DNA of 57,627 nt from a virus (lineage: Duplodnaviria > Caudoviricetes), in IMG/VR virus record IMGVR_UViG_3300037847_000264, positions 1-57,627 of that record. One strand, written 5' to 3'. The notes below the pieces were generated by a model, which was not told the DNA's origin, did no database searches, and worked only from the letters and a program-made list of their open reading frames with translations. Shown in pieces: positions 19,883 through 49,869 of this stretch. Every line of letters starts with the position of its first letter. Position 1 is the first letter of the stretch. Position numbers and translations under genes: made by a program.

Positions 19883-21730
19883 TTAGTGTACTTCACTATA
19901 GCGTTGACCATATTGTATGTCAATACCTAAGTCAACATTTAATTTTAAATCTTCATTAAGTTTTTTGATAGCCCATGTCAATGCTGAACTATGCTCATCT
20001 TCTTCTCCTTTTTTAACAAGATTAATTGATTCATCATGAAACTGACCGATGATATTTGGTCTGCGAGTACGGTAGTAAGCAACCCATTTGTCAAAGCAGT
20101 ACGCTCCAGTAGATTGATTAAGAGTAGAGAATACATCTTTCTCATACCTAAGCGAATGCCAAAACTTACTTACAGGGTTTTGTACCCACATCTCTCCGTT
20201 GATCTTTCGTATTGATTGATCTTCAGAAAACTTTTTGACTGACCAATTACGTTCCCAATAAGCATCAAGAAGTTTTTGTGCTTCAGGCACTGGCAGTCCA
20301 GTAGTACGTGATAACTTAGGCGCACCAACGCCATAAGTAGCAGAGTAGTTTACAACTTTAAAGTTTTTACGTAAGTCTTTAAGTTGATTGTTTCTACCTG
20401 CATTGTATTCATCTATCTCTATTTGAGATACAGCATTAGCATGTAAAGCTAGGTCAAGGTGAGGATCAAATCCTTTTTGTGACATATCGTTTACATAGTC
20501 TGGATCATAAGGATACATGTAGTGACGTTTAGTTGTATCCTCTAGTGAGGTCATATCAGCACCACATAGAACATAACCATCTGGAACTGTAAGACAACCA
20601 CGTATTTCTTTACCCCAAGGTCTATCAACACCAGGAAGATTGACCAAAGGTTTTTTATGTTTGAATCGTAGCGTATTTGTTAAGCCATCTATCTCTGCTT
20701 TAACATAACCATTACGTTCACACTCAATAAAAGCTTCAAAGATTTTAAGTCTGTGTTGCATAACAGTCAAACCTTCTAGCACTTCTACTATTGGATTGTC
20801 GTCAATTAAAAGTTTAACTGAGTCTGTTAGCTCACCATCCTTACGGACTTGAGGTATCTTTCTTTCCTTACCAGTCTCTTTATTCTTATCGTACTTAAAT
20901 GTACAAGGCTCCCAACCAAGAGAGGTAAGCCACTCTTTAACTTGGTCAGTAGAGTTAGGGTTAGGATCTTCCCAACCTTTTGTAACAACAAGATCATCGT
21001 TGTAATGGTAAGGTAGTTTATGCTCATCAAGCAAAGCAAACCATCGCACACCATGCGAGGATGGACTGCCATCTTTTTTGAAACAAACTTTAGGTCTGCG
21101 TTTAATTGTAGTAAGCCTACGCTTAGGCATAACTAATTTAAGTTCAGACTCTTTGTCTGCCTTCTGTTTTGTTAAAGTATCTACACACTGCTTTGCCAAT
21201 TCAATATCTAACTTCCAACCTACCTGTTCTGCTTTAGCTGCACAGTCCATTTTAAATTGTAAGTATCGAAAGAACTTATCTAGCTCAAGCTTATCTTTAT
21301 AGATAAACATAAACCTTTCTAAAACATTTTGCCATAACTTCCAATTAATCTTTACATCTTCTACACAACGATGACGATAGTCATCTTGAGTAAGATTATG
21401 CCAGTCATCTATTACTGGTTTGGGTATACCAAAGTCTTCACCGAAAGACTCAAGTCCATGCTTAGGTCTGTTGTAGTTAAGAACCCAAGACATAGGCAGG
21501 GTATCAAACAACCTAGACTTAATCTTAATACCTAAGATCTTTTCTAACAATGGCACATCATACCTAATAATGTTATGACCTATCAGACCTGATTGACTTA
21601 GAAGTAAGTCTCGCATTTGATCGTAGTCAAACAAAGTATCTATGGCCTGACCATCAGATGTATATGACAAGCAATGTATTTTAGTAGCATCGTCTAATAG
21701 ACCATCAGCTTCTACATCAAATACAATCAT
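19883..21730 (-). CDS. polA: Family A DNA polymerase with 3'-5' exonuclease
   Basis: DVE ExoI, GHNIIRYD ExoII, GADMTSLE motif A, RKNFKVVNYSATYG motif B, QFHDE motif C. Confidence 0.92.
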   Translation of the reverse strand: MIVFDVEADGLLDDATKIHCLSYTSDGQAIDTLFDYDQMRDLLLSQSGLIGHNIIRYDVPLLEKILGIKIKSRLFDTLPMSWVLNYNRPKHGLESFGEDFGIPKPVIDDWHNLTQDDYRHRCVEDVKINWKLWQNVLERFMFIYKDKLELDKFFRYLQFKMDCAAKAEQVGWKLDIELAKQCVDTLTKQKADKESELKLVMPKRRLTTIKRRPKVCFKKDGSPSSHGVRWFALLDEHKLPYHYNDDLVVTKGWEDPNPNSTDQVKEWLTSLGWEPCTFKYDKNKETGKERKIPQVRKDGELTDSVKLLIDDNPIVEVLEGLTVMQHRLKIFEAFIECERNGYVKAEIDGLTNTLRFKHKKPLVNLPGVDRPWGKEIRGCLTVPDGYVLCGADMTSLEDTTKRHYMYPYDPDYVNDMSQKGFDPHLDLALHANAVSQIEIDEYNAGRNNQLKDLRKNFKVVNYSATYGVGAPKLSRTTGLPVPEAQKLLDAYWERNWSVKKFSEDQSIRKINGEMWVQNPVSKFWHSLRYEKDVFSTLNQSTGAYCFDKWVAYYRTRRPNIIGQFHDESINLVKKGEEDEHSSALTWAIKKLNEDLKLNVDLGIDIQYGQRYSEVH

Positions 21731-26601: not shown

Positions 26602-27567
26602 TCACATATACTTACGCCACGAATCCTCATCCAAATAATTACCTAGATGGTATGTGTCTTGTATACTACACTCTTCCATCAAATCATACGGATTAAATCC
26701 ATAGTCAGCAAGCATCTCACTGATCTCATAAGGATAGTCTTGTACTATATTGTATATAGCTTGGACATTCTCCTTAGATACATGATAGTTACCTCTTGTA
26801 ATACCTGATGACCTACCATAGTAAGGTGCATACTCCATGTCTTTCGGGTCACGAACAAAGACCAACTGCGACCAATCAGCGCACAGTAAAGCAGCAACCA
26901 ACATGTCCAAGTATTGCAAGTCTTGTGTCTCATTGACACCATGCTGACCATAGTAACCAACGCTGATATTAGTACATTCAGGTACTATCAATGAGTACTC
27001 GTTACTGTCTGTGTATGAGCCACCAGTGTCAGGCTTAAGCTGCGGCATGTTTAGTGCCTCTGCAAAAGATAAAGCAAACTCATCTGATGCAGTACGCAAC
27101 CCCATCTGGTGTGTGATCACAGAGTTGTCACCATATCTGTCAAAAGATATAACAGCTCTAGTATATTCCAACCAAGACGGATAGTCCTCTACAAGAGCAA
27201 AGCTACCCTTACAACCAGACTCTTCAGCTGCATGGATAACATACGTACCATCAATACCTGCTTCAATCATACAAAGTATGATGTAGATACCAGTGGTACA
27301 ATCAGCACCCAAACAGTTGGATACCTTGTTGTCAGCTACAGACACTATGTCGTTACTTACCAACAACTTCTGCATTCCACTGTCTTTGTGTACAGTGTCA
27401 TGGTGTGCAGTAAAACACAACTTAGGTGTGTCACCTACCTGATGTATGTAGTTGCCATGCTCATCAGGCAAACCAAACACAGGTTCTAAAAATCTTTTAC
27501 AAAACTGCCTCTGACTTACACTGTCTTGAGGCCGCATGTATCTCAACATTTCAATAATGCTATGCAT
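26602..27567 (-). CDS. M28/M20-family Zn peptidase-like protein
   Basis: FTAHHDTVH, LGADC, AEESGC.GS, SFDR, YTDS, NISVGY..QH metal-ligand pattern. Confidence 0.8.
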   Translation of the reverse strand: MHSIIEMLRYMRPQDSVSQRQFCKRFLEPVFGLPDEHGNYIHQVGDTPKLCFTAHHDTVHKDSGMQKLLVSNDIVSVADNKVSNCLGADCTTGIYIILCMIEAGIDGTYVIHAAEESGCKGSFALVEDYPSWLEYTRAVISFDRYGDNSVITHQMGLRTASDEFALSFAEALNMPQLKPDTGGSYTDSNEYSLIVPECTNISVGYYGQHGVNETQDLQYLDMLVAALLCADWSQLVFVRDPKDMEYAPYYGRSSGITRGNYHVSKENVQAIYNIVQDYPYEISEMLADYGFNPYDLMEECSIQDTYHLGNYLDEDSWRKYM

Positions 27568-29155
27568 CTTTTCTCTCTCCTTTTAATTCCCAAACATCAT
27601 TGTCTGGGTTCTTTACATACCCATCGTTCTTTGCTTCATCAATGGATATGTCATGACCATCTTCGGTCATAGCCATTTGATCTAGGGGATACCACTCATT
27701 GTCAAAGTCAGACTCAAAGTAATCACTTAGTAATGTCTCTGGTATCCAGTCACTTTCATACTCTGACCAAACGCAGCAATCAGCGTGCCACCACTCACCA
27801 TCAACCTCTGAGTAACAGAATGTATCTCCATCGGTTTCCCACTCAGCAACTCTTTCTGTATCTGGTTGACCGTTTCTCAGGAAGTACACTGTCATCATAG
27901 CACTGTCATGCACATGCTCTCCTGCATACTCACAGTAGCTGTGAGTGTCATAGTAACAATCCTCACAGTAATGCTCGTCAGTACTCTCTGAGTAGTAGTA
28001 AGCATCCTCATTCAACCCCACATTACAACAGCTACAGTTAGTGTAGTGACCACCAAGTACACCGCTGTAACAGGTAGCATCAATCTCACCATCTTCACAG
28101 ACAACTAGGTGTTCACCATCATCATGCAGTGCCTGTGGAGATAGGTCTAAGTAAGGTGCGACAAAGCTATCCTCATCATGTACGATACGAGTTAGCCTAG
28201 CGCCATCCCAAGTAGCACTACCTGCCATTACAGCACCCTCGCTAGAGAGATGGTTCTCTATCATACTGATAGCTTGCTCTGACACGCCATAGATTGGCCC
28301 TGCCTGTGGTGCATCCAAGTGTGTAGCTACCACACACCTACCTGCAACCAAGTCATTCTGATCTAGTACATAGATAATCTTGAAGTCACCACTAGCATAT
28401 ACCTCAGCAGGATGTACTTGAAGATGATCAAAGTCATAACGCATACAGCTGTGAGCCATATGTTTTCTAGACCAAGTAGTATTTACATTCTCATTCTCAG
28501 ACTGCTCACCTGCATATGCAAGATAAAATTTAGCAGGTTCTGTTGACTCATGTACAGTAAGTTTACGAGGTGCAAACCTCTGCAAGAATCCATCGGTAAT
28601 ACCGATCAAAGTCTTGTGATCCAACTCAGGAAACATCAGACTGATTGCACGACCAGGTTTCATAGCCACCTCACGATTATCATCACGATCCTTGTGAGAT
28701 TGAAACACCTTGATCTTACCCTTATACTTGTCGGAACGTCTGGCATTGAATGCCCGTATACGACACATTACTTTGATCTTATCAAGGTGGTCAACACCAG
28801 AAAACAAAGGTACAATTTGCGTCTGTAGCCACAGCTGAAAATCAGTATCGTTCTCCTGACCAACCATAAACTCTCTGTAATCACCCCACTCTTGCAATAC
28901 TTTATCACTTTCATCAGGGTCTTTACGGTATTGTTTTTTAACAACAAATCCGTGGTCAGTAGGTTTAACTACATAGACTTGACTTGTGTCCGATAGTTGA
29001 ACACGACCACTGAAAGGGACATCACTATCAGTAGCGTCCCATTCAATATCATCAAACAAATGTGGTTGATATGGTACAAGTTTTTCAAAGAGTGCATCAC
29101 CGAAGTGATCTTTGATTTTGTTACCATCCACAGGTACAAGAGTATAATTAGCCAT
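27560..29155 (-). CDS. Hypothetical protein with central SCM domain and C-terminal Cys/His/acidic repeats
   Basis: 531 aa; SCMRY..HPAEVY..AGRCVV..IYG; CSCC, YCEDC, YCEY repeats; overlaps peptidase start. Confidence 0.7.
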   Translation of the reverse strand: MANYTLVPVDGNKIKDHFGDALFEKLVPYQPHLFDDIEWDATDSDVPFSGRVQLSDTSQVYVVKPTDHGFVVKKQYRKDPDESDKVLQEWGDYREFMVGQENDTDFQLWLQTQIVPLFSGVDHLDKIKVMCRIRAFNARRSDKYKGKIKVFQSHKDRDDNREVAMKPGRAISLMFPELDHKTLIGITDGFLQRFAPRKLTVHESTEPAKFYLAYAGEQSENENVNTTWSRKHMAHSCMRYDFDHLQVHPAEVYASGDFKIIYVLDQNDLVAGRCVVATHLDAPQAGPIYGVSEQAISMIENHLSSEGAVMAGSATWDGARLTRIVHDEDSFVAPYLDLSPQALHDDGEHLVVCEDGEIDATCYSGVLGGHYTNCSCCNVGLNEDAYYYSESTDEHYCEDCYYDTHSYCEYAGEHVHDSAMMTVYFLRNGQPDTERVAEWETDGDTFCYSEVDGEWWHADCCVWSEYESDWIPETLLSDYFESDFDNEWYPLDQMAMTEDGHDISIDEAKNDGYVKNPDNDVWELKGERKDA

Positions 29156-30274: not shown

Positions 30275-30384
30275 TTCATTAATCCTTCACAAATTCTGCG
30301 GTCAGTGGATATGATAACGATCTTACCATTGTCATCATACAGTATCCACTTTCTACCACGTTGCACCAATGTCATTATATCCAT
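30271..30384 (-). CDS. Hypothetical early protein (37 aa, not in ORF track)
   Basis: MDIMTLVQRGRKWILYDDNGKIVIISTDRRICEGLMK; GGAGGAG RBS; coupled both sides. Confidence 0.55.
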   Translation of the reverse strand: MDIMTLVQRGRKWILYDDNGKIVIISTDRRICEGLMK

Positions 30385-30599
30385 CACTCCTCCTCAATCC
30401 AAGCACGAGCATTATACCTACATCTTGCAGCCCACTTACGTTCTTCAAGCGTAGCTTCTCGTGCATCCTCATCCCATTCCATCATCTGACCAACGCTATC
30501 CCATCCAAGATCAGCCCTATCGGGGTCTGGATCATCGGTCAGGCGTCCATCAGGTTGTTCATAGAACGGCCATGAATCACTTGTAATGTACATTTTCAT
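30384..30599 (-). CDS. Hypothetical early protein
   Basis: 71 aa; GGAGG RBS. Confidence 0.6.
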   Translation of the reverse strand: MKMYITSDSWPFYEQPDGRLTDDPDPDRADLGWDSVGQMMEWDEDAREATLEERKWAARCRYNARAWIEEE

Positions 30600-30617
30600 A
30601 GTACACCTCCATAAAAT

Positions 30618-30691
30618 TGGCAGGGGTTGTAGGAATCGAACCTACAGCGATGGGTTTGGAATCCATCGTGTTACCATTACACCAAACCCCT
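30618..30691 (-). tRNA. trnW: tRNA-Trp (CCA)
   Basis: AGGGGTT/AACCCCT acceptor stem, GTGT/ACAC D-stem, TT-CCA-AA anticodon loop, GTAGG-TTCGATT-CCTAC T-arm, encoded CCA end. Confidence 0.92.
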
Positions 30692-30707
30692 AACATAGGT
30701 ATAGGAA

Positions 30708-30733
30708 AGCACCCCATGCAATCACAGGGTACT
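30708..30733 (-). terminator. Stem-loop between first early ORF and tRNA (terminator or processing site)
   Basis: Minus strand AGUACCCUGUG/CAUGGGGUGCU with G-U pairs, followed by a short U-run. Confidence 0.5.
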
Positions 30734-30743
30734 CATCCAATAC

Positions 30744-31241
30744 TCACGCAATGATAGCTTTGAGTGCTTTGATCTTGTCTGCATCGACAACATCACCATC
30801 TTGCAAACCATCTTGACGCCGCTTGTCTGCACGTGCAATCAGTGCAGCAATCATGTCGTCAAGGTTCATGGGTTTGTACTCAGGTTCTTTCTTGAACTCC
30901 CAGAATGGCGTAGCACATGCAGCCTTAGCATCATCAAGAGAAATCTTGGTGCGCTTCGCATGATAGGCAAAGCATGAATTGTCAGCGTCCCACACGAATG
31001 TGGCATAAGCCTCAACCCAAGCTTTGAACGCATTAGCACGAGCCATACTTGGTATAGCTGCAAGCAATGCATTCATCTGACGAACAGCAACAGACACGTC
31101 ACTGCTCTCATGCCATCGACGAACGATAGAACAAGCAGTACGGTGGATGTCCTTCTGAATAGACTTTCCACGCTTACTGATTGAAGCAATCATATCATCA
31201 ATCTTTGCATCGGTAGTAATAAGAGAAATTTTAGTAGCCAT
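30744..31241 (-). CDS. First early protein, 165 aa (start revised to MATKISL)
   Basis: GGAGG RBS 5 nt upstream of the ATG at 31241; helical protein with ATPFWEF motif. Confidence 0.75.
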   Translation of the reverse strand: MATKISLITTDAKIDDMIASISKRGKSIQKDIHRTACSIVRRWHESSDVSVAVRQMNALLAAIPSMARANAFKAWVEAYATFVWDADNSCFAYHAKRTKISLDDAKAACATPFWEFKKEPEYKPMNLDDMIAALIARADKRRQDGLQDGDVVDADKIKALKAIIA

Positions 31242-31244
31242 GTA

Positions 31245-31810
31245 AACCTCCAACGATATAGCCAAACACCATGCACTCACCATGAATGCACAGTGCAAGC
31301 TATACCGTAGGCCACGCACAAACCACAGTGTACGCAAAGTACCATTTACAAAAAATATTCCATGTAAACAGGTACTAATGTTTGCAGGTTCTCTACTAAC
31401 TCGAACACGTTTTTCGGTAATTGCAAACATAAGCTACGTGGCCTATGGGTTCACTTGCATAACAATGGGTGCAGGTCTCAGCAGGTGCGTAGCATGTGTC
31501 GCACTTATCCCATTGCAATAATATTGCTATCCGAAACGGACGGTCATTTTGCAGGTTGACAGGCATCGCATAACGTTCCTGACCAATCAGGTAACGCACT
31601 TGCACTGATGCAAACGCACTGCAATATCGCATCCGATATACTTACTGTCCACCCTGAACCAATCCAAGCATTAGGCATGGCTCAGGCCTTACGGCACTGT
31701 CTTATTGGGCATCCTTCTAGCCACCAATAAGTATACGGTACACCCTAGGGTGCTATAGTCACTCTTTACGGTAGGTTCACCCGTCTGGCTGTGATAACCA
31801 GTAATATTGT
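31245..31810 (-). ncRNA. Candidate large structured ncRNA / ornate leader RNA
   Basis: >10 hairpins and nested long-range stems, GNRA-capped GCC-GUAA-GGC hairpin, several G-U pairs on minus strand, no convincing ORF. Confidence 0.6.
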
Positions 31811-31937
31811 GAAAACAGAATACCAAATAAGAATAAGAAATAAACAAAAAAGAATTGTTTAAAATCAAAGACTTAGAAAAAAAGTTATATTCAGTAAAAT
31901 GAATATGATCACCTGAGCCTGACCAAATTCACGTTTT

Positions 31938-31981
31938 GTTCTCTTGATGTTCTATGTTAGTGATTCGTTCATGATTCGTTC
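31938..31981. promoter_or_regulatory. Two alphaproteobacterial LexA (SOS) boxes GTTC-N7-GTTC
   Basis: GTTCtcttgatGTTC (31938-31952) and GTTCatgattcGTTC (31967-31981), each with a degenerate third unit upstream. Confidence 0.7.
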
Positions 31982-32063
31982 TCTTTTATTATATATAATG
32001 TGTCGGGTAGCTATGGGGTATATATTCAAGTATATGAATGTTTGAATATGTTGTAATTCCTAG

Positions 32064-32080
32064 TTGCGAATGAGTCGCAA
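32064..32080. promoter_or_regulatory. Palindrome resembling a Fur/Mur-family operator
   Basis: TTGCGA-atgag-TCGCAA perfect inverted repeat. Confidence 0.4.
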
Positions 32081-32565
32081 TTTCAAGAATACTTTATGTT
32101 TTTAGTAAGGTATTATTGTTTTATAATACTATATTGTGTAAATTATGTAATAAATACAATGTATTAACCTAATAAATTAGTGTCATATTCACATATTCGA
32201 ATATTTGAATGTATTGATTGGGATAGGCATGGGACATACGGGGGGTATGGGATACGTATATACCCAGAATGACAGAAATTAGGAATTTAAAGTCTGTTAA
32301 CCACAATGAAATATCTACATGTTATACTATAACACCTTTATTTTATTAAATATATCAGTAGTATTGACCTATATTATGTAAATACTGTAGGAAGCCCCAG
32401 GAATTACGTTATCTCTCCACACAATGTGGGGTAGCCTGGGGGGTATCTTAGGTTATTCTGGGGGCATCTCAGGAACTCTGACAGCTATTTTGCAGTGTTA
32501 CCCAATATATACGACATAATGGGGACACGTAATCAATAAATATTAAAAATATTTTGTCGTACCCC

Positions 32566-32595
32566 TTGACAGCGGGGCATAAAGTAATATATAAT
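32566..32595 (+). promoter_or_regulatory. Sigma70 promoter
   Basis: TTGACA-N18-TATAAT (or N16-TATATA). Confidence 0.55.
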
Positions 32596-32661
32596 ATACT
32601 TAATGTAATACATTACGCTTAACTTTAACTTTATTACTACTTTAATATAATAGTAATATTA

Positions 32662-32697
32662 ATACTTATAGTAATACTTATAGTAATACTTCTAGTA
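32662..32697. repeat. 12-bp tandem repeat (ATACTTATAGTA x3), iteron/operator-like
   Basis: ACTTATAGTA at 32664 and 32676, ACTTCTAGTA at 32688; same 10-mer at 26496 and 26549. Confidence 0.75.
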
Positions 32698-32741
32698 TGT
32701 ACACTCGATCTAACTTTTTTCTGTCGTATCAAGAAAAAGTA

Positions 32742-32771
32742 TTGACCTTAGTAGTTAAAAAGGTATAACTA
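32742..32771 (+). promoter_or_regulatory. Promoter TTGACC-N16-TATAAC(TA), probably giving a leaderless mRNA
   Basis: ATG at 32775 lies at the expected TSS. Confidence 0.6.
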
Positions 32772-32774
32772 AGG

Positions 32775-33026
32775 ATGTCCAAATCAAGACTGTTTGCTTC
32801 AGACAAAGTAATAGAGGAATTTTACAAAGCTCTTGCTGACAAAAACGAAGCAAAGCTACGTAGAGTACACATACCACGTTCAGATGTATTCTACATACGA
32901 GAAAAAATTTACCAAGACACAGGCATTAGGTATTCTCTTGATAGAGTAGAAAGAGCTATGTACCTTGAGGGACATCTTAATAGGTACGATGTACTAGATC
33001 CTGACAAAAAGAGAGATTGGGAATAA
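32775..33026 (+). CDS. Hypothetical protein (83 aa)
   Basis: First gene of + arm; TAATG-coupled to next gene. Confidence 0.7.
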   Translation: MSKSRLFASDKVIEEFYKALADKNEAKLRRVHIPRSDVFYIREKIYQDTGIRYSLDRVERAMYLEGHLNRYDVLDPDKKRDWE

Positions 33027-48795: not shown

Positions 48796-49869
48796 ATGGC
48801 TTTTACAACTGCAACGGGTCACGGAAATTTACCAAACGGTAATTTTAGTTCCGTAATCTATTCCAAAAAGGTGCAGCTTGCATTCCGTAAGTCTACGGTT
48901 GCAGGTGACATCACAAACTCTGACTATTTTGGCGAGATCGCTGCTCAAGGTGATACCGTTAAAATTATCAAAGAACCTGAAATCTCAGTTAGTTCTTATG
49001 CACGTGGTACAACAATCACTGCACAAGATCTTGACGATGAAGATTTTTCTCTTGTCGTAGATAAAGCAAACTACTTTGCGTTTAAAATCGACGACATCGA
49101 AGAAGCTCACTCACATGTGAACTTCATGGACTTGGCTACTAATCGTGCAGCATATCGCTTGTCAGATCAGTACGACCAAGAAGTATTAGGCTACTTGGCA
49201 GGATACAAACAGTCTGCACTACATACTGCAGCTGATACTGTAAACGACCAAGTAAACGGTACAAAAGCTGTTTCAACCGCAGGTTCAGACGAATTGCTTT
49301 CAAGCATGAAGCTGAAAAAAGGTGACTTTGGCAACATCACAACAACTTCTGCTGGCGATCACTCGATTCCAGTAGCAGCTCGTTTGCCAGGAGCAACAGC
49401 TTTACCAACAGCCACAGCTTCACCAGCAATGGTTGTAGCTCGTATGGCTCGTCTACTTGATCAACAACAAGTTGATAAAGATGGACGTTGGTTGGTTGTA
49501 GATCCAGTATTCATGGAAATTCTACGTGATGAAGACTCACGTCTTTTCAACGCAGACTTCGGTGAATCAGGTGGACTACGAAATGGTCTTGTCTTGAATA
49601 ACTTCCACGGATTCCGTGTATATACTTCAAGCAACCTACCATCAGTCGGTACAGGCCCAGGTACAACTGGTTCTGCTAACCAAAACACTAACTATGGTGC
49701 TATTGTTGCAGGTCATGATTCTGCTGTCGCAACTGCGGAGCAAATCAATAAGACTGAAACTTACCGTGATCCAGACAGCTTTGCTGACATCGTTCGTGGT
49801 ATGCATCTATATGGTAGAAAGATCCTTCGTCCTGAAGGTATCGTTACTGCCAAGTACAACGCAGCGTAA
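48796..49869 (+). CDS. Major capsid protein (start revised to MAFTTA)
   Basis: GGAGGA RBS; GEI...GDTVKI, F.IDDIE, DPDSFADIVRGMHLYGRKILRPE. Confidence 0.88.
   Translation: MAFTTATGHGNLPNGNFSSVIYSKKVQLAFRKSTVAGDITNSDYFGEIAAQGDTVKIIKEPEISVSSYARGTTITAQDLDDEDFSLVVDKANYFAFKIDDIEEAHSHVNFMDLATNRAAYRLSDQYDQEVLGYLAGYKQSALHTAADTVNDQVNGTKAVSTAGSDELLSSMKLKKGDFGNITTTSAGDHSIPVAARLPGATALPTATASPAMVVARMARLLDQQQVDKDGRWLVVDPVFMEILRDEDSRLFNADFGESGGLRNGLVLNNFHGFRVYTSSNLPSVGTGPGTTGSANQNTNYGAIVAGHDSAVATAEQINKTETYRDPDSFADIVRGMHLYGRKILRPEGIVTAKYNAA

What the first reader, a model, noticed from the sequence alone, without database searches (positions are those of the whole stretch)
31245..31810. Candidate ~560-nt ornate non-coding RNA heading the early operon, joined to a 165-aa protein gene
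This segment is more GC-rich than the AT-rich DNA at 31810-32770, has no credible ORF, and is almost fully foldable. Stems seen (+ coordinates): 31642-47/31799-804 (long-range, closing a domain); 31701-08/31724-31; 31653-61/31678-86; 31686-95 (GCC-GUAA-GGC GNRA hairpin on minus); 31624-29/31634-39; 31578-82/31587-91; 31463-69/31509-15 (multiloop); 31305-16/31437-48, which encloses 31338-43/31371-76 and 31378-86/31422-30; and 31272-79/31283-90. The GNRA loop and several G-U pairs favour the minus strand, although some pairs favour plus. A TGn-TATTCT extended -10 near 31817-31825 would start transcription right at its 5' edge. It runs into the GGAGG RBS of the 165-aa ORF, which is followed by a hairpin and the tRNA. 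Inference: an RNA-protein system expressed first on infection (RNP, decoy against defence, ribozyme or giant riboregulator), comparable in scale to ROOL/GOLLD RNAs but not recognisable to me as either.
Basis: partly seen in the sequence, partly recalled or inferred. Interest (0 to 1): 0.9.

Follow-up and report, generated by a model that had tools for sequence, protein, structure and literature searches.

The report
Large structured leader RNA of phage
A marine phage and its relatives carry a conserved, intricately folded RNA of about 450-570 bases in front of their first early gene; it matches no catalogued RNA family and its job is still unknown.

Summary
The finding is real, and it is a structured RNA. 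The window is a complete 57.6-kb phage genome. The stretch 31242-31810, read on the minus strand, is the non-coding leader of the 165-aa gene 30744-31241.

I collected 26 distinct homologues from viral and metagenome contigs. All lie directly upstream of a homologue of that gene.
- Covariation is strong. In the core, 94% of cells pair against 27-44% in slid controls, and 33 of 46 pairs show compensatory changes.
- In the 3' domain, 95% of cells pair against 25-48%, with compensatory changes in 20 of 34 pairs.
- Invariant G-U pairs fix the strand.
- No Rfam family matches, even at E<=10.
- No ORF is conserved in the leader.

The folding z-score alone is not decisive: 2 of 16 coding control windows reach it. 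The "GNRA hairpin", the long-range closing stem and the tRNA link are not.

Function is not shown. My best guess is a cis-acting riboregulator of the early operon. The ribosome-binding site sits 2-4 nt after a nearly invariant helix and is complementary to conserved RACC motifs. No RNA-seq data were available.

The parts
31817..31825 (-). Extended -10-like element TGG-TATTCT. The inferred transcription start is near 31810.
   Evidence: Read directly from the sequence. A TGn+-10-like hexamer followed by GGTTTCA-like letters sits at the same alignment columns in relatives. It was not picked up by the consensus scan, which needs a -35. Inference only.
31758..31794 (-). 5' domain hairpin H1: UCAC/GUGA closing pairs, ACGG/CCGU inner pairs. 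The apical loop GUGAACCUACC (31780-31770) is complementary to the ribosome-binding region.
   Evidence: Group alignment and RNAalifold. Best duplex partner of the SD segment, -14.0 kcal/mol. Unconstrained MFE.
31741..31752 (-). Hairpin H2 (CACCC-UA-GGGUG).
   Evidence: The hairpin position is kept with different sequences in relatives.
31634..31737 (-). Core three-way junction. It comprises helix H3 (31737-31725 with 31647-31634), hairpin H3a (31724-31720 with 31710-31707), the invariant strand AAUAAGACAGUGCCGUAAGG (31706-31687) and hairpin H4 (31686-31674 with 31665-31653).
   Evidence: Covariation counts on A3. H3: 10 of 13 pairs with double changes. H4: 7 of 10. H3a pair 34/53: G-C in 20 rows, A-U in 4. 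R1 scores 149.9 bits.
31549..31624 (-). Domain H5. Closing helix 31624-31619 with 31554-31549. Conserved strands GUGCGUUUG and CCUGUCAA. Inner helices include the window's CCUGA/UCAGG hairpin (31591-31587 with 31582-31578). CUGUC (31562-31558) is a candidate pseudoknot partner of GACAG (31701-31697).
   Evidence: helices 4-8: 14 of 17 pairs with double changes. Pseudoknot: 120 of 120 cells pairable but no double change.
31458..31546 (-). Hairpin H6 (about 31540-31530) and domain H10 (31520-31509 with 31469-31458). H10 encloses hairpin 31504-31485 and the conserved loop GCUGAGACCUGCA.
   Evidence: Per-sequence folds show the same closing helix with different sequences: CAAUGGG/CCCAUUG, CAGUGAG/CUCACUG, GGACGUUG/CAACGUCC.
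31448..31454 (-). Conserved single strand GUGAACC, complementary to GGUUUAC (the 3' part of the SD plus spacer).
   Evidence: RNAduplex finds 7-8 bp. It ranks among the best 22 of 353-630 11-mers in 25 of 26 sequences. A matched one-base deletion occurs on both sides in L005.
31308..31445 (-). Helix H7 (31445-31437 with 31316-31308) with apical hairpin and loop CUGUGGUU (31335-31314). It is interrupted in this genome only by an extra branch of about 105 nt (31330-31436).
   Evidence: H7: 12 of 13 pairs with double changes. The insert is absent in all 25 other distinct homologues. It is present in contigs of two other studies and absent in co-occurring close relatives. No other copy was found.
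31254..31307 (-). Helix H8 (31307-31298 with 31263-31254) enclosing hairpin H9 (31296-31286 with 31276-31266; loop UCAUGGUGA).
   Evidence: H8: 98.8% of cells paired, and one pair is A-U in 8 rows, G-C in 7 and C-G in 1. H9: 6 of 11 pairs with double changes. G-U pairs are invariant in 16 of 16 rows.
31239..31251 (-). Shine-Dalgarno GGAGG (31251-31247) and start codon (31241-31239) of the 165-aa gene, 2-4 nt after H8 in all 26 homologues.
   Evidence: Alignments A2 and A5.
30744..31241 (-). 165-aa protein gene (phrog_1448, function unknown), always downstream of the RNA.

Best explanation
Window 31242 to about 31810, minus strand, encodes a conserved multi-domain structured RNA. It is about 570 nt here and about 420-470 nt in relatives. 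It forms the untranslated leader of the phage's leftward early/replication operon and runs without a terminator into the ribosome-binding site of the first gene, a 165-aa protein of unknown function.

Shown: the RNA fold. It consists of a 5' hairpin domain, a three-way junction carrying the invariant strand CCAAUAAGACAGU, a second multi-helix domain, a variable domain, and a 3' domain of three helices ending 2-4 nt before GGAGG.

Inferred: it acts in cis as a riboregulator of early gene expression. The ribosome-binding region can pair either with the adjacent conserved GUGAACC strand, closing the 3' domain, or with the apical loop of the 5' domain. Translation of the first gene would then depend on the fold of the leader.

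The conserved core would be the platform for an unknown partner that sets this state. That partner could be the gene's own, mildly basic product, a host factor or a small ligand.
For: - Homologues: 52 places hold the core motif (51 loci and the window). All 47 with enough downstream DNA encode the protein homologue at a fixed distance.
- Covariation overall: 42 of 67 RNAalifold pairs have compensatory changes.
- Covariation, core: 94.0% of cells paired against 27-44% slid; 33 of 46 pairs with double changes; 0 of 500 shuffles reach it.
- Covariation, 3' domain: 95.3% against 25-48%; 20 of 34 pairs; 0 of 500 shuffles.
- Strand: invariant G-U pairs (24 of 24 rows and 16 of 16 rows) would be A-C on the other strand.
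- No conserved ORF. No Rfam match. No terminator-like site in 30300-33000.
- H8 ends 2-4 nt before the SD in 26 of 26 sequences.
- GUGAACC pairs 7-8 bp with the SD/spacer and ranks in the top 22 of 353-630 windows in 25 of 26 sequences. The changes in L005, L014 and L025 keep the pairing.
- The best partner of the SD segment is the 5' domain's apical loop in 10 of 21 distinct sequences, and it is in the top four in 14 of 21. This holds across both 5' architectures.
- The unconstrained MFE of the window closes the whole RNA by this same pairing.
- A helix expansion that is polymorphic between close strains is typical of the periphery of a functional RNA.
- The protein has pI 8.96; the family median is 9.0.
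Against: - No transcript data of any kind exist. The promoter, 5' end and integrity of the RNA are inferred.
- The two anti-SD pairings rest on complementarity of conserved sequences and on rank tests, not on clean double compensations.
- 7 of 21 sequences lack the long-range one among their top four partners, and L008 has only 5 bp for the proximal one.
- In Stappia phage SI01 the only recognisable part, the three-way junction with CCAAUAAGACAGU, lies about 570 nt upstream of the homologue. An annotated 66-aa ORF lies between them. The most conserved module is therefore not tied to that ribosome-binding site.
- About 450 nt of conserved structure is far more than known translational operators need.
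- The candidate pseudoknot has no statistical support: 500 of 500 shuffles equal it.
- The folding z-score is matched by 2 of 16 coding controls.
Confidence: 0.45

Rival explanations
1. The RNA is a trans-acting non-coding RNA, or the scaffold of an RNP, for example with the 165-aa protein or a host protein. It would be released from the leader by processing and used for host take-over or counter-defence. Linkage to the gene would reflect co-expression, not cis regulation.
For: - The size, the multi-domain architecture, the invariant unpaired strands (CCAAUAAGACAGU, GUGCGUUUG, UGUCAA, GCUGAGAC) and a variable peripheral expansion resemble stand-alone ornate RNAs.
- The RACC motif recurs in three exposed places, as repeated protein-binding sites do.
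- The core module is kept in Stappia phage SI01, far from the homologue's start codon.
- RNA and protein gene co-occur in 47 of 47 testable places.
- 5'UTR-derived ncRNA candidates are reported for other phages (PMC10914365, section 20 read).
Against: - No terminator or recognisable processing site lies before the SD.
- H8-SD spacing is invariant in 26 of 26 sequences, which a free RNA would not need.
- The protein has no detectable RNA-binding fold or family.
- No expression data exist.
Confidence: 0.27
2. The RNA acts on transcription. It would be a cis-acting element in the nascent early transcript that modifies or protects the host RNA polymerase. That could mean processive antitermination in the manner of HK022 put, or a structure that denies Rho a loading site on a long untranslated leader. 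Either way, the whole 17-kb leftward operon gets transcribed.
For: - It lies immediately downstream of the inferred early promoter and ahead of all leftward genes.
- The phage has no RNA polymerase of its own among the ORFs scanned.
- What the family shares with SI01 is the 'start of the early transcript' context, not the distance to the gene.
- That put works this way is recalled knowledge, not from a call.
Against: No sequence or size likeness to put or nut elements was tested or seen. No terminators were predicted nearby that would need reading through. Rho-proofing needs structure but not invariant loops.
Confidence: 0.13
3. The structure mainly governs RNA stability or processing. It would be a set of RNase III/E sites, or a protective 5' structure for the early mRNA as in T7 early RNA, without a specific sensing function.
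For: Long perfect helices (H3, H7, H8/H9) are potential RNase III substrates. The leader sits at the 5' end of a polycistronic RNA.
Against: Processing hairpins do not need conserved junction strands, a three-way junction kept at about 30% protein identity distance, or conserved hairpin loops.
Confidence: 0.08
4. It is a DNA-level element, such as a single-stranded DNA structure at an origin or packaging site, or it has no function and the conservation is only shared ancestry.
For: Both strands give low folding energies. The element abuts an AT-rich, repeat-rich spacer that looks like a control or origin region.
Against: - Invariant G-U pairs and C-G to U-G changes are strand-specific and typical of RNA.
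- Pairing is kept while sequences diverge to 49% mean column identity.
- Slid-partner controls, which keep relatedness, fall to 25-48% paired.
Confidence: 0.04

Closest known systems
ROOL and GOLLD RNAs (large ornate RNAs, often in phages or prophages; Rfam families; cryo-EM structures in PMC12286853, of which I saw the search listing and the start of the abstract only)
   Same: They are several hundred nucleotides long, multi-domain, supported by covariation, phage-associated and of unknown function.
   Different: No Rfam model matches at E<=10. This RNA is fused to a ribosome-binding site and always precedes one gene family. Nearness to a tRNA is not conserved. That ROOL and GOLLD are free-standing and often lie near tRNAs is recalled.
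5'UTR-derived ncRNA candidates of Pseudomonas phages seen by ONT-cappable-seq (PMC10914365; passages and section 20 read)
   Same: They are phage RNAs arising from leaders just downstream of promoters, and they are conserved within a genus.
   Different: Those are under 250 nt, defined by premature termination and have expression evidence. This one is 420-570 nt, has no terminator, is defined by covariation and has no expression evidence. Their supplementary tables could not be opened.
Autoregulatory translational operators of phage mRNAs (T4 gene 32 leader pseudoknot, RegA sites; recalled) and candidate gp32 leader structures (PMC10690425, passages seen)
   Same: They are structures at or next to the ribosome-binding site of a phage gene, possibly bound by the gene's own product.
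   Different: They are an order of magnitude smaller. No binding of the 165-aa protein to RNA has been shown.
Riboswitch and T-box leaders
   Same: They are long structured 5' leaders in which a conserved sensing core is coupled to alternative pairing of an expression platform. Here there are two candidate anti-SD partners.
   Different: No ligand or tRNA link was found, no Rfam riboswitch matched, and this RNA is twice the usual size or more.
HK022 put RNA and satellite phage P4 leader/CI RNA (recalled)
   Same: They are functional RNA elements encoded in the untranslated leader of a phage early operon.
   Different: Size and structure are unrelated. No test of antitermination or immunity is possible with these tools.

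Membership tests
Any Rfam 15 family (including ROOL, GOLLD, OLE, HEARO, group I/II introns, RNase P, tmRNA, 6S, riboswitches, T-box) | Covariance-model score at or above the family's gathering threshold | tested here: not met
   Whole window: only the tRNA passes. In 30500-33000 at E<=10: only the tRNA. Seven relatives' loci at E<=1: a tRNA, plus one sub-threshold lncRNA hit outside the element.
Structured non-coding RNA (generic) | Base pairs maintained by compensatory substitutions beyond what relatedness gives | tested here: met
   33 of 46 pairs; 94.0% paired against 27-44% slid; 20 of 34 pairs; 95.3% against 25-48%; 42 of 67 pairs.
Structured non-coding RNA (generic) | No conserved reading frame | tested here: met
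   The longest sense ORFs are 30-105 aa and start at different alignment columns. In 5 of 26 sequences none exceeds 36 aa.
Structured non-coding RNA (generic) | Transcribed | not testable with these tools
   No RNA run holds the locus. The promoter is inferred only.
Cis-regulatory leader / riboregulator | Contiguous with the regulated gene and fixed in geometry to its ribosome-binding site | tested here: met
   No terminator-like site. H8 ends 2-4 nt before GGAGG in 26 of 26 sequences.
Cis-regulatory leader / riboregulator | Conserved alternative pairing that occludes the ribosome-binding site | tested here: inconclusive
   Proximal GUGAACC: 7-8 bp in most sequences, ranked in the top 22 of 353-630 windows in 25 of 26. 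Distal apical loop: best partner in 10 of 21, top four in 14 of 21. No formal covariation test was possible because of indels.
Cis-regulatory leader / riboregulator | Identified effector (ligand, protein, tRNA, temperature) | not testable with these tools
   None identified.
RNP with the 165-aa protein | The protein has an RNA-binding fold or family | tested here: not met
   No Pfam or NCBIfam family. PHROG 1448 has unknown function. The confident AF2 model (pLDDT 95.9) has no PDB match at E<=0.001. The 19 BFVD matches at E<=0.001 carry no functional annotation: 'Uncharacterized protein', or no name in the tables at hand. The only hint is a mildly basic pI.

The most novel reading that the evidence does not exclude
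A previously undescribed class of large ornate phage RNA is made as the very first transcript of infection. Its conserved three-way-junction core (CCAAUAAGACAGU) binds a host machine such as the ribosome, RNA polymerase or an RNase. Its exposed RACC loops, which resemble the 3' end of 16S rRNA in being complementary to Shine-Dalgarno regions, let it switch its own translation. They might also capture other messages. The core module is shared with at least one cultured T7-like phage (Stappia phage SI01). It may therefore be an old component of podophage early regions, partnered with the widespread 'first early gene' family phrog_1448.
Probability: 0.2. Interest if true: 0.85.

Novelty: new variant of a known kind. 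Interest (0 to 1): 0.72.

Why it matters
Large, covariation-supported RNAs without a known function are rare, and several (OLE, ROOL, GOLLD) have turned out to form unexpected assemblies.

This one has a defined genetic setting. It is the first thing a group of marine podophages would transcribe, and it is fused to the ribosome-binding site of a protein family present in at least 616 sequence clusters of phage proteins, whose role is also unknown.

It therefore offers a handle both on early-gene control in uncultured marine phages and on that protein family. Stappia phage SI01 is cultured and carries the core module, so the question can be tested at the bench.

Tried and rejected
- Rfam at permissive thresholds on the window and on seven relatives: nothing.
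- Sequencing runs: no RNA holder is listed for the locus, so expression could not be examined. The DNA contigs laid speak only to the insert.
I instead fetched eight named phage records by tblastn hit.
- A looser DNA pattern for the core motif in viral contigs gave 31 loci, 24 of them new. None of the 24 has the protein homologue within 2.5 kb, and all look like chance matches inside genes.
- The strict motif has 0 matches in 185,579 species' genomes.
- CM R1 found nothing convincing in ParMal1, RSB1, TacPo2, RHEph27, IME271, RHph_X3_9 or VAC_51. Only Stappia SI01 scored (17.1 bits).
- CM R2 gave one weak partial hit in TacPo2 (15.1 bits). I treat it as a lead only.
- A kissing interaction of the H9 loop was sought. 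The best partners fall at inconsistent columns, so I rejected it, apart from one suggestive case in L008.
- The GACAG:CUGUC pseudoknot is always pairable but has no double change. It is unproven.
- A coding N-terminal extension (the 228-aa ORF from 31430) is rejected because no relative keeps it.
- The window-specific insert has no second copy in the genome or in the loci, so it was not pursued as a mobile element.
- Protein function: Pfam, NCBIfam, PDB sequence and fold searches, BFVD and the ESM Atlas all came back uninformative.
- Literature: three full-text searches found no description of this RNA. The supplementary tables of PMC10690425 (more than 8,000 candidate viral RNA motifs from IMG/VR, mean length 67 nt) and of PMC10914365 could not be opened. 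They might list pieces of it.
Full report
**Setting.** The window is a complete single-contig genome of 57,627 bp.
- ORF and PHROG scans show a podophage-like layout. A rightward arm from 32775 carries lysis, terminase, portal, head and tail-fibre genes. A leftward arm from 31241 down to about 14300 carries a DNA-binding protein, peptidase, integrase, PAPS reductase, thymidylate synthase, primase/helicase, family-A DNA polymerase, Cas4-like nuclease and ribonucleotide reductase.
- No phage RNA polymerase was seen among the ORFs scanned.
- The polymerase is closest to Roseobacter phage CRP-6 (54.6%) and to a group of 45-50-kb Pseudomonas aeruginosa phages (about 48%) that I recall as LUZ24-like.
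- The two arms diverge from a 1.5-kb non-coding stretch, 31242-32774. Its right two thirds are AT-rich (GC 0.25-0.34). Its left third, the finding, has GC 0.44-0.49, the same as the coding DNA.

- The only long frame, 228 aa from 31430, is an in-frame extension that no relative keeps.
- The minus strand folds to -196.5 kcal/mol (z -3.58; 0 of 100 shuffles reach it). The plus strand folds to -171.3 kcal/mol (z -4.03).
- I do not lean on these numbers. In a control of 16 coding windows of the same length (20 shuffles each), z ranged from +0.25 to -5.71, and 2 of 16 were at or below -3.58.
- The decisive evidence is comparative.

**Homologues.**
- A protein-anchored search gave 10 viral loci.
- A DNA pattern from the most conserved block gave 13 viral loci, from 3 new contigs.
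- A stricter pattern gave 28 metagenome contigs.
- Together with the window, 52 places hold the motif, all in the same orientation relative to a homologue of the 165-aa gene.
- tblastn finds that homologue in 47 of the 52. The other 5 have only 88-371 nt of DNA downstream of the motif.
- The distance from motif to start codon is 317-362 nt in relatives and 465 nt in the window.
- After removing duplicates, 26 distinct sequences remain (alignment A2, mean column identity 49%).

**Structure.** RNAalifold on A2 predicts 67 pairs, 42 of them with compensatory double changes. I refined two sub-alignments by hand.

*Core (A3, 46 pairs, 24 distinct rows):*
- 94.0% of cells form standard pairs, against 73.0% in column shuffles (0 of 500 reach the observed value) and 27.3-43.5% when partners are slid by 1-3 columns.
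- 33 of 46 pairs show changes on both sides.
- The covariation score is 0.600, against 0.05-0.13 for slid partners.

*3' domain (A5, 34 pairs, 16 distinct rows):*
- 95.3% of cells are paired, against 83.4% in column shuffles and 24.9-47.7% slid.
- 20 of 34 pairs show double changes.
- The covariation score is 0.444, against 0.04-0.15.
- 0 of 500 shuffles reach the observed value.

*Strand:* several G-U pairs never change: A3 31/116 in 24 of 24 rows, and A5 164/214 and 179/199 in 16 of 16. On the opposite strand these would be A-C. The folded molecule is therefore the minus-strand transcript, sense to the gene.

**The resulting model** (window coordinates):
- Hairpin H1 (31794-31758) and hairpin H2.
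- A three-way junction made of H3 (31737-31725 with 31647-31634), H3a and H4. It carries the invariant strand AAUAAGACAGUGCCGUAAGG (31706-31687).
- A multi-helix domain H5 (31624-31549) with the conserved strands GUGCGUUUG and CCUGUCAA.
- Hairpin H6.
- Domain H10 (31520-31458). Its closing helix has quite different sequences in different relatives.
- A conserved strand AAGUGAACCC.
- Helices H7, H8 and H9 (31445-31254).

Relatives fall into two 5' architectures. In this genome alone, H7 carries an extra branch of about 105 nt.
- Contigs from two other studies contain that branch with 0-1 differences.
- Closely related co-occurring strains lack it at exactly the same point.
- It has no other copy.
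- A strain-specific expansion at the tip of a helix is what one expects at the periphery of a functional RNA. It also shows the insert is not an assembly artefact.

- Four match covarying helices: H4, H10, H7 and H9.
- Three are plausible but specific to this window.
- The long-range 31642-47/31799-804 stem and the 31624-29/31634-39 hairpin use bases that belong to H3.
- The 31701-08/31724-31 stem is the wrong partner choice.
- The 'GNRA hairpin' has an invariant GUAAG, but its supposed closing bases vary independently.

**What is it not?**
- No Rfam 15 family matches, in the window at E<=10 or in seven relatives at E<=1. It is therefore not ROOL, GOLLD, OLE, a group I/II intron, RNase P, tmRNA, 6S or a catalogued riboswitch.
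- It is not coding.
- It is single-copy in the genome. R1 scores 149.9 bits and R2 scores 101.6 bits; the next hits are at or below 20.7 bits, and the best of those is the reverse strand of the same place.
- The strict motif is absent from one genome each of 185,579 prokaryote species.

**How far does it reach?** The protein family is large.
- It has 616 representative clusters at E<=1e-3 and hits in 237 phage records.
- In linear Autographiviridae records the gene lies about 0.4-2.7 kb from the left end, among the first genes.
- I fetched eight such phages and searched their upstream regions with R1 and R2.
- Only Stappia phage SI01 carries a recognisable piece. It has an exact CCAAUAAGACAGU flanked by a 12-bp H3-like helix, an H3a-like hairpin and an H4-like hairpin (17.1 bits; E 3e-4 within its locus). 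This lies about 570 nt upstream of its homologue, with a 66-aa ORF annotated in between.
- Pantoea phage TacPo2 has an H8/H9-like nested hairpin with a similar loop 25 nt before its homologue (15.1 bits; a lead only).
- Several of these phages have 0.7-1.6 kb without annotation upstream of the gene.

**Mechanism.** What is shown is a fold and a linkage. The rest is inference.
- The RNA runs into the gene without any terminator-like site.
- Helix H8 ends 2-4 nt before GGAGG in all 26 sequences. That geometry would not be constrained in a free-standing RNA.

*Proximal partner:* the strand GUGAACC just 5' of H7 is complementary to GGUUUAC, the 3' half of the SD plus the spacer. Pairing them would simply close the 3' domain as a three-way junction.
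- The duplex is 7-8 bp in most sequences (-5.2 to -10.9 kcal/mol).
- It ranks within the best 22 of 353-630 windows of the same RNA in 25 of 26 sequences.
- It survives changes on both sides: GUAAACC with UUUAC, GUGACC with GGUUAC in L005, and the variants in L014 and L025.

*Distal partner:* the energetically best partner of the same SD segment is the apical loop of the 5' domain.
- This holds in 10 of 21 distinct sequences, and the loop is in the top four in 14 of 21.
- It holds in both 5' architectures, although their loop sequences differ.
- The unconstrained fold of the window uses exactly this pairing to close the whole molecule.

A third exposed RACC motif sits in the H10 loop. I therefore favour a riboregulator in which the state of the conserved core decides whether the ribosome-binding site is free. 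The partner that sets that state is unknown. The gene product is a candidate because it always co-occurs and is mildly basic (pI 8.96). However, it has no recognisable RNA-binding fold. The AF2 model is confident (pLDDT 95.9), has no PDB match at E<=0.001 and matches only viral proteins without functional annotation.

**Against this reading.**
- The most conserved module is not next to the homologue's ribosome-binding site in SI01.
- The anti-SD pairings lack clean covariation statistics.
- The RNA is much larger than any known translational operator.

These points keep three rivals alive: a processed trans-acting RNA or RNP, a transcription-level role on the host polymerase or against Rho, and a stability or processing role. 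The candidate pseudoknot GACAG:CUGUC is pairable in 120 of 120 cells. Its two variable positions change only C to U opposite G. It has no double change and no statistical support.

**Promoter.**
- A TGn plus -10-like hexamer followed by GGTTTCA-like letters occupies the same alignment columns in most relatives. A start near 31810 is therefore reasonable but unproven.
- The generic scan shows no excess of promoter-like sites (9 found, 9.7 expected).
- A palindrome ATATTCA-N6-TGAATAT lies about 70 bp upstream (31887-31908). It recurs in the spacer and in relatives, suggesting a protein operator for the divergent promoters.

**Novelty and verdict.**
- Three full-text searches found no description of this RNA.
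- A survey of IMG/VR reported more than 8,000 short candidate motifs with mean length 67 nt (PMC10690425, passages seen). Its tables could hold fragments of this RNA, but supplements were closed.
- I file it as a new family of large structured phage RNA. It is a new variant of the known kind 'structured leader / ornate ncRNA'. It is real with about 90% confidence, and its function is open.

Noticed in passing
window 31810-32770: The AT-rich divergent control region holds several repeats: the palindrome ATTCA-N6/7-TGAAT at 31887-31908, 32020-32041 and 32185-32210; a 12-nt tandem repeat TAATACTTATAG at 32648-32695; and G-rich boxes GGGTAGCYNTGGGG at 32005, 32429 and 32451. A perfect TTGACA-18-TATAAT promoter for the rightward arm lies at 32566-32595. 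It looks like an operator/origin region.
   Followed up: partly
window 31330-31436: An extra RNA branch of about 105 nt is inserted in helix H7 in this genome only. It is present in contigs of two other studies and missing in close co-occurring relatives (skip 31328->31462 with 28 replacing letters; loose ends at 31332). No second copy exists.
   Followed up: yes
window 49000-49570 and 20000-20570: Coding windows in the major head protein gene (z -5.7) and the DNA polymerase gene (z -3.9) fold as far below their shuffles as the finding does (only 20 shuffles each).
   Followed up: no
L053 (Stappia phage SI01) 1398-1496 and 1940-2000: A cultured T7-like phage carries the core three-way junction with an exact CCAAUAAGACAGU. 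It also has a hairpin with GUGCAU arms plus GUGAAC just before its homologue of the 165-aa gene.
   Followed up: partly
L055 (Pantoea phage TacPo2) 1934-1976: A nested hairpin resembling H8/H9, with loop UCAUUGUGA, lies 25 nt before the homologous gene. It sits at the end of a 1.6-kb unannotated stretch.
   Followed up: no
L034 1-60: This metagenome contig begins with letters that look like a sequencing adaptor (identification recalled, not tested). Its 5' end is not part of the RNA.
   Followed up: no
window 27560-29155 (-): A 531-aa ORF in the early arm has no Pfam, PHROG or NCBIfam match and a Cys/His-rich C-terminal half.
   Followed up: no
window 30618-30691 (-): tRNA-Trp follows the 165-aa gene here and in L001. 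It is absent from the other 13 family loci scanned, so it is not part of the conserved module.
   Followed up: yes
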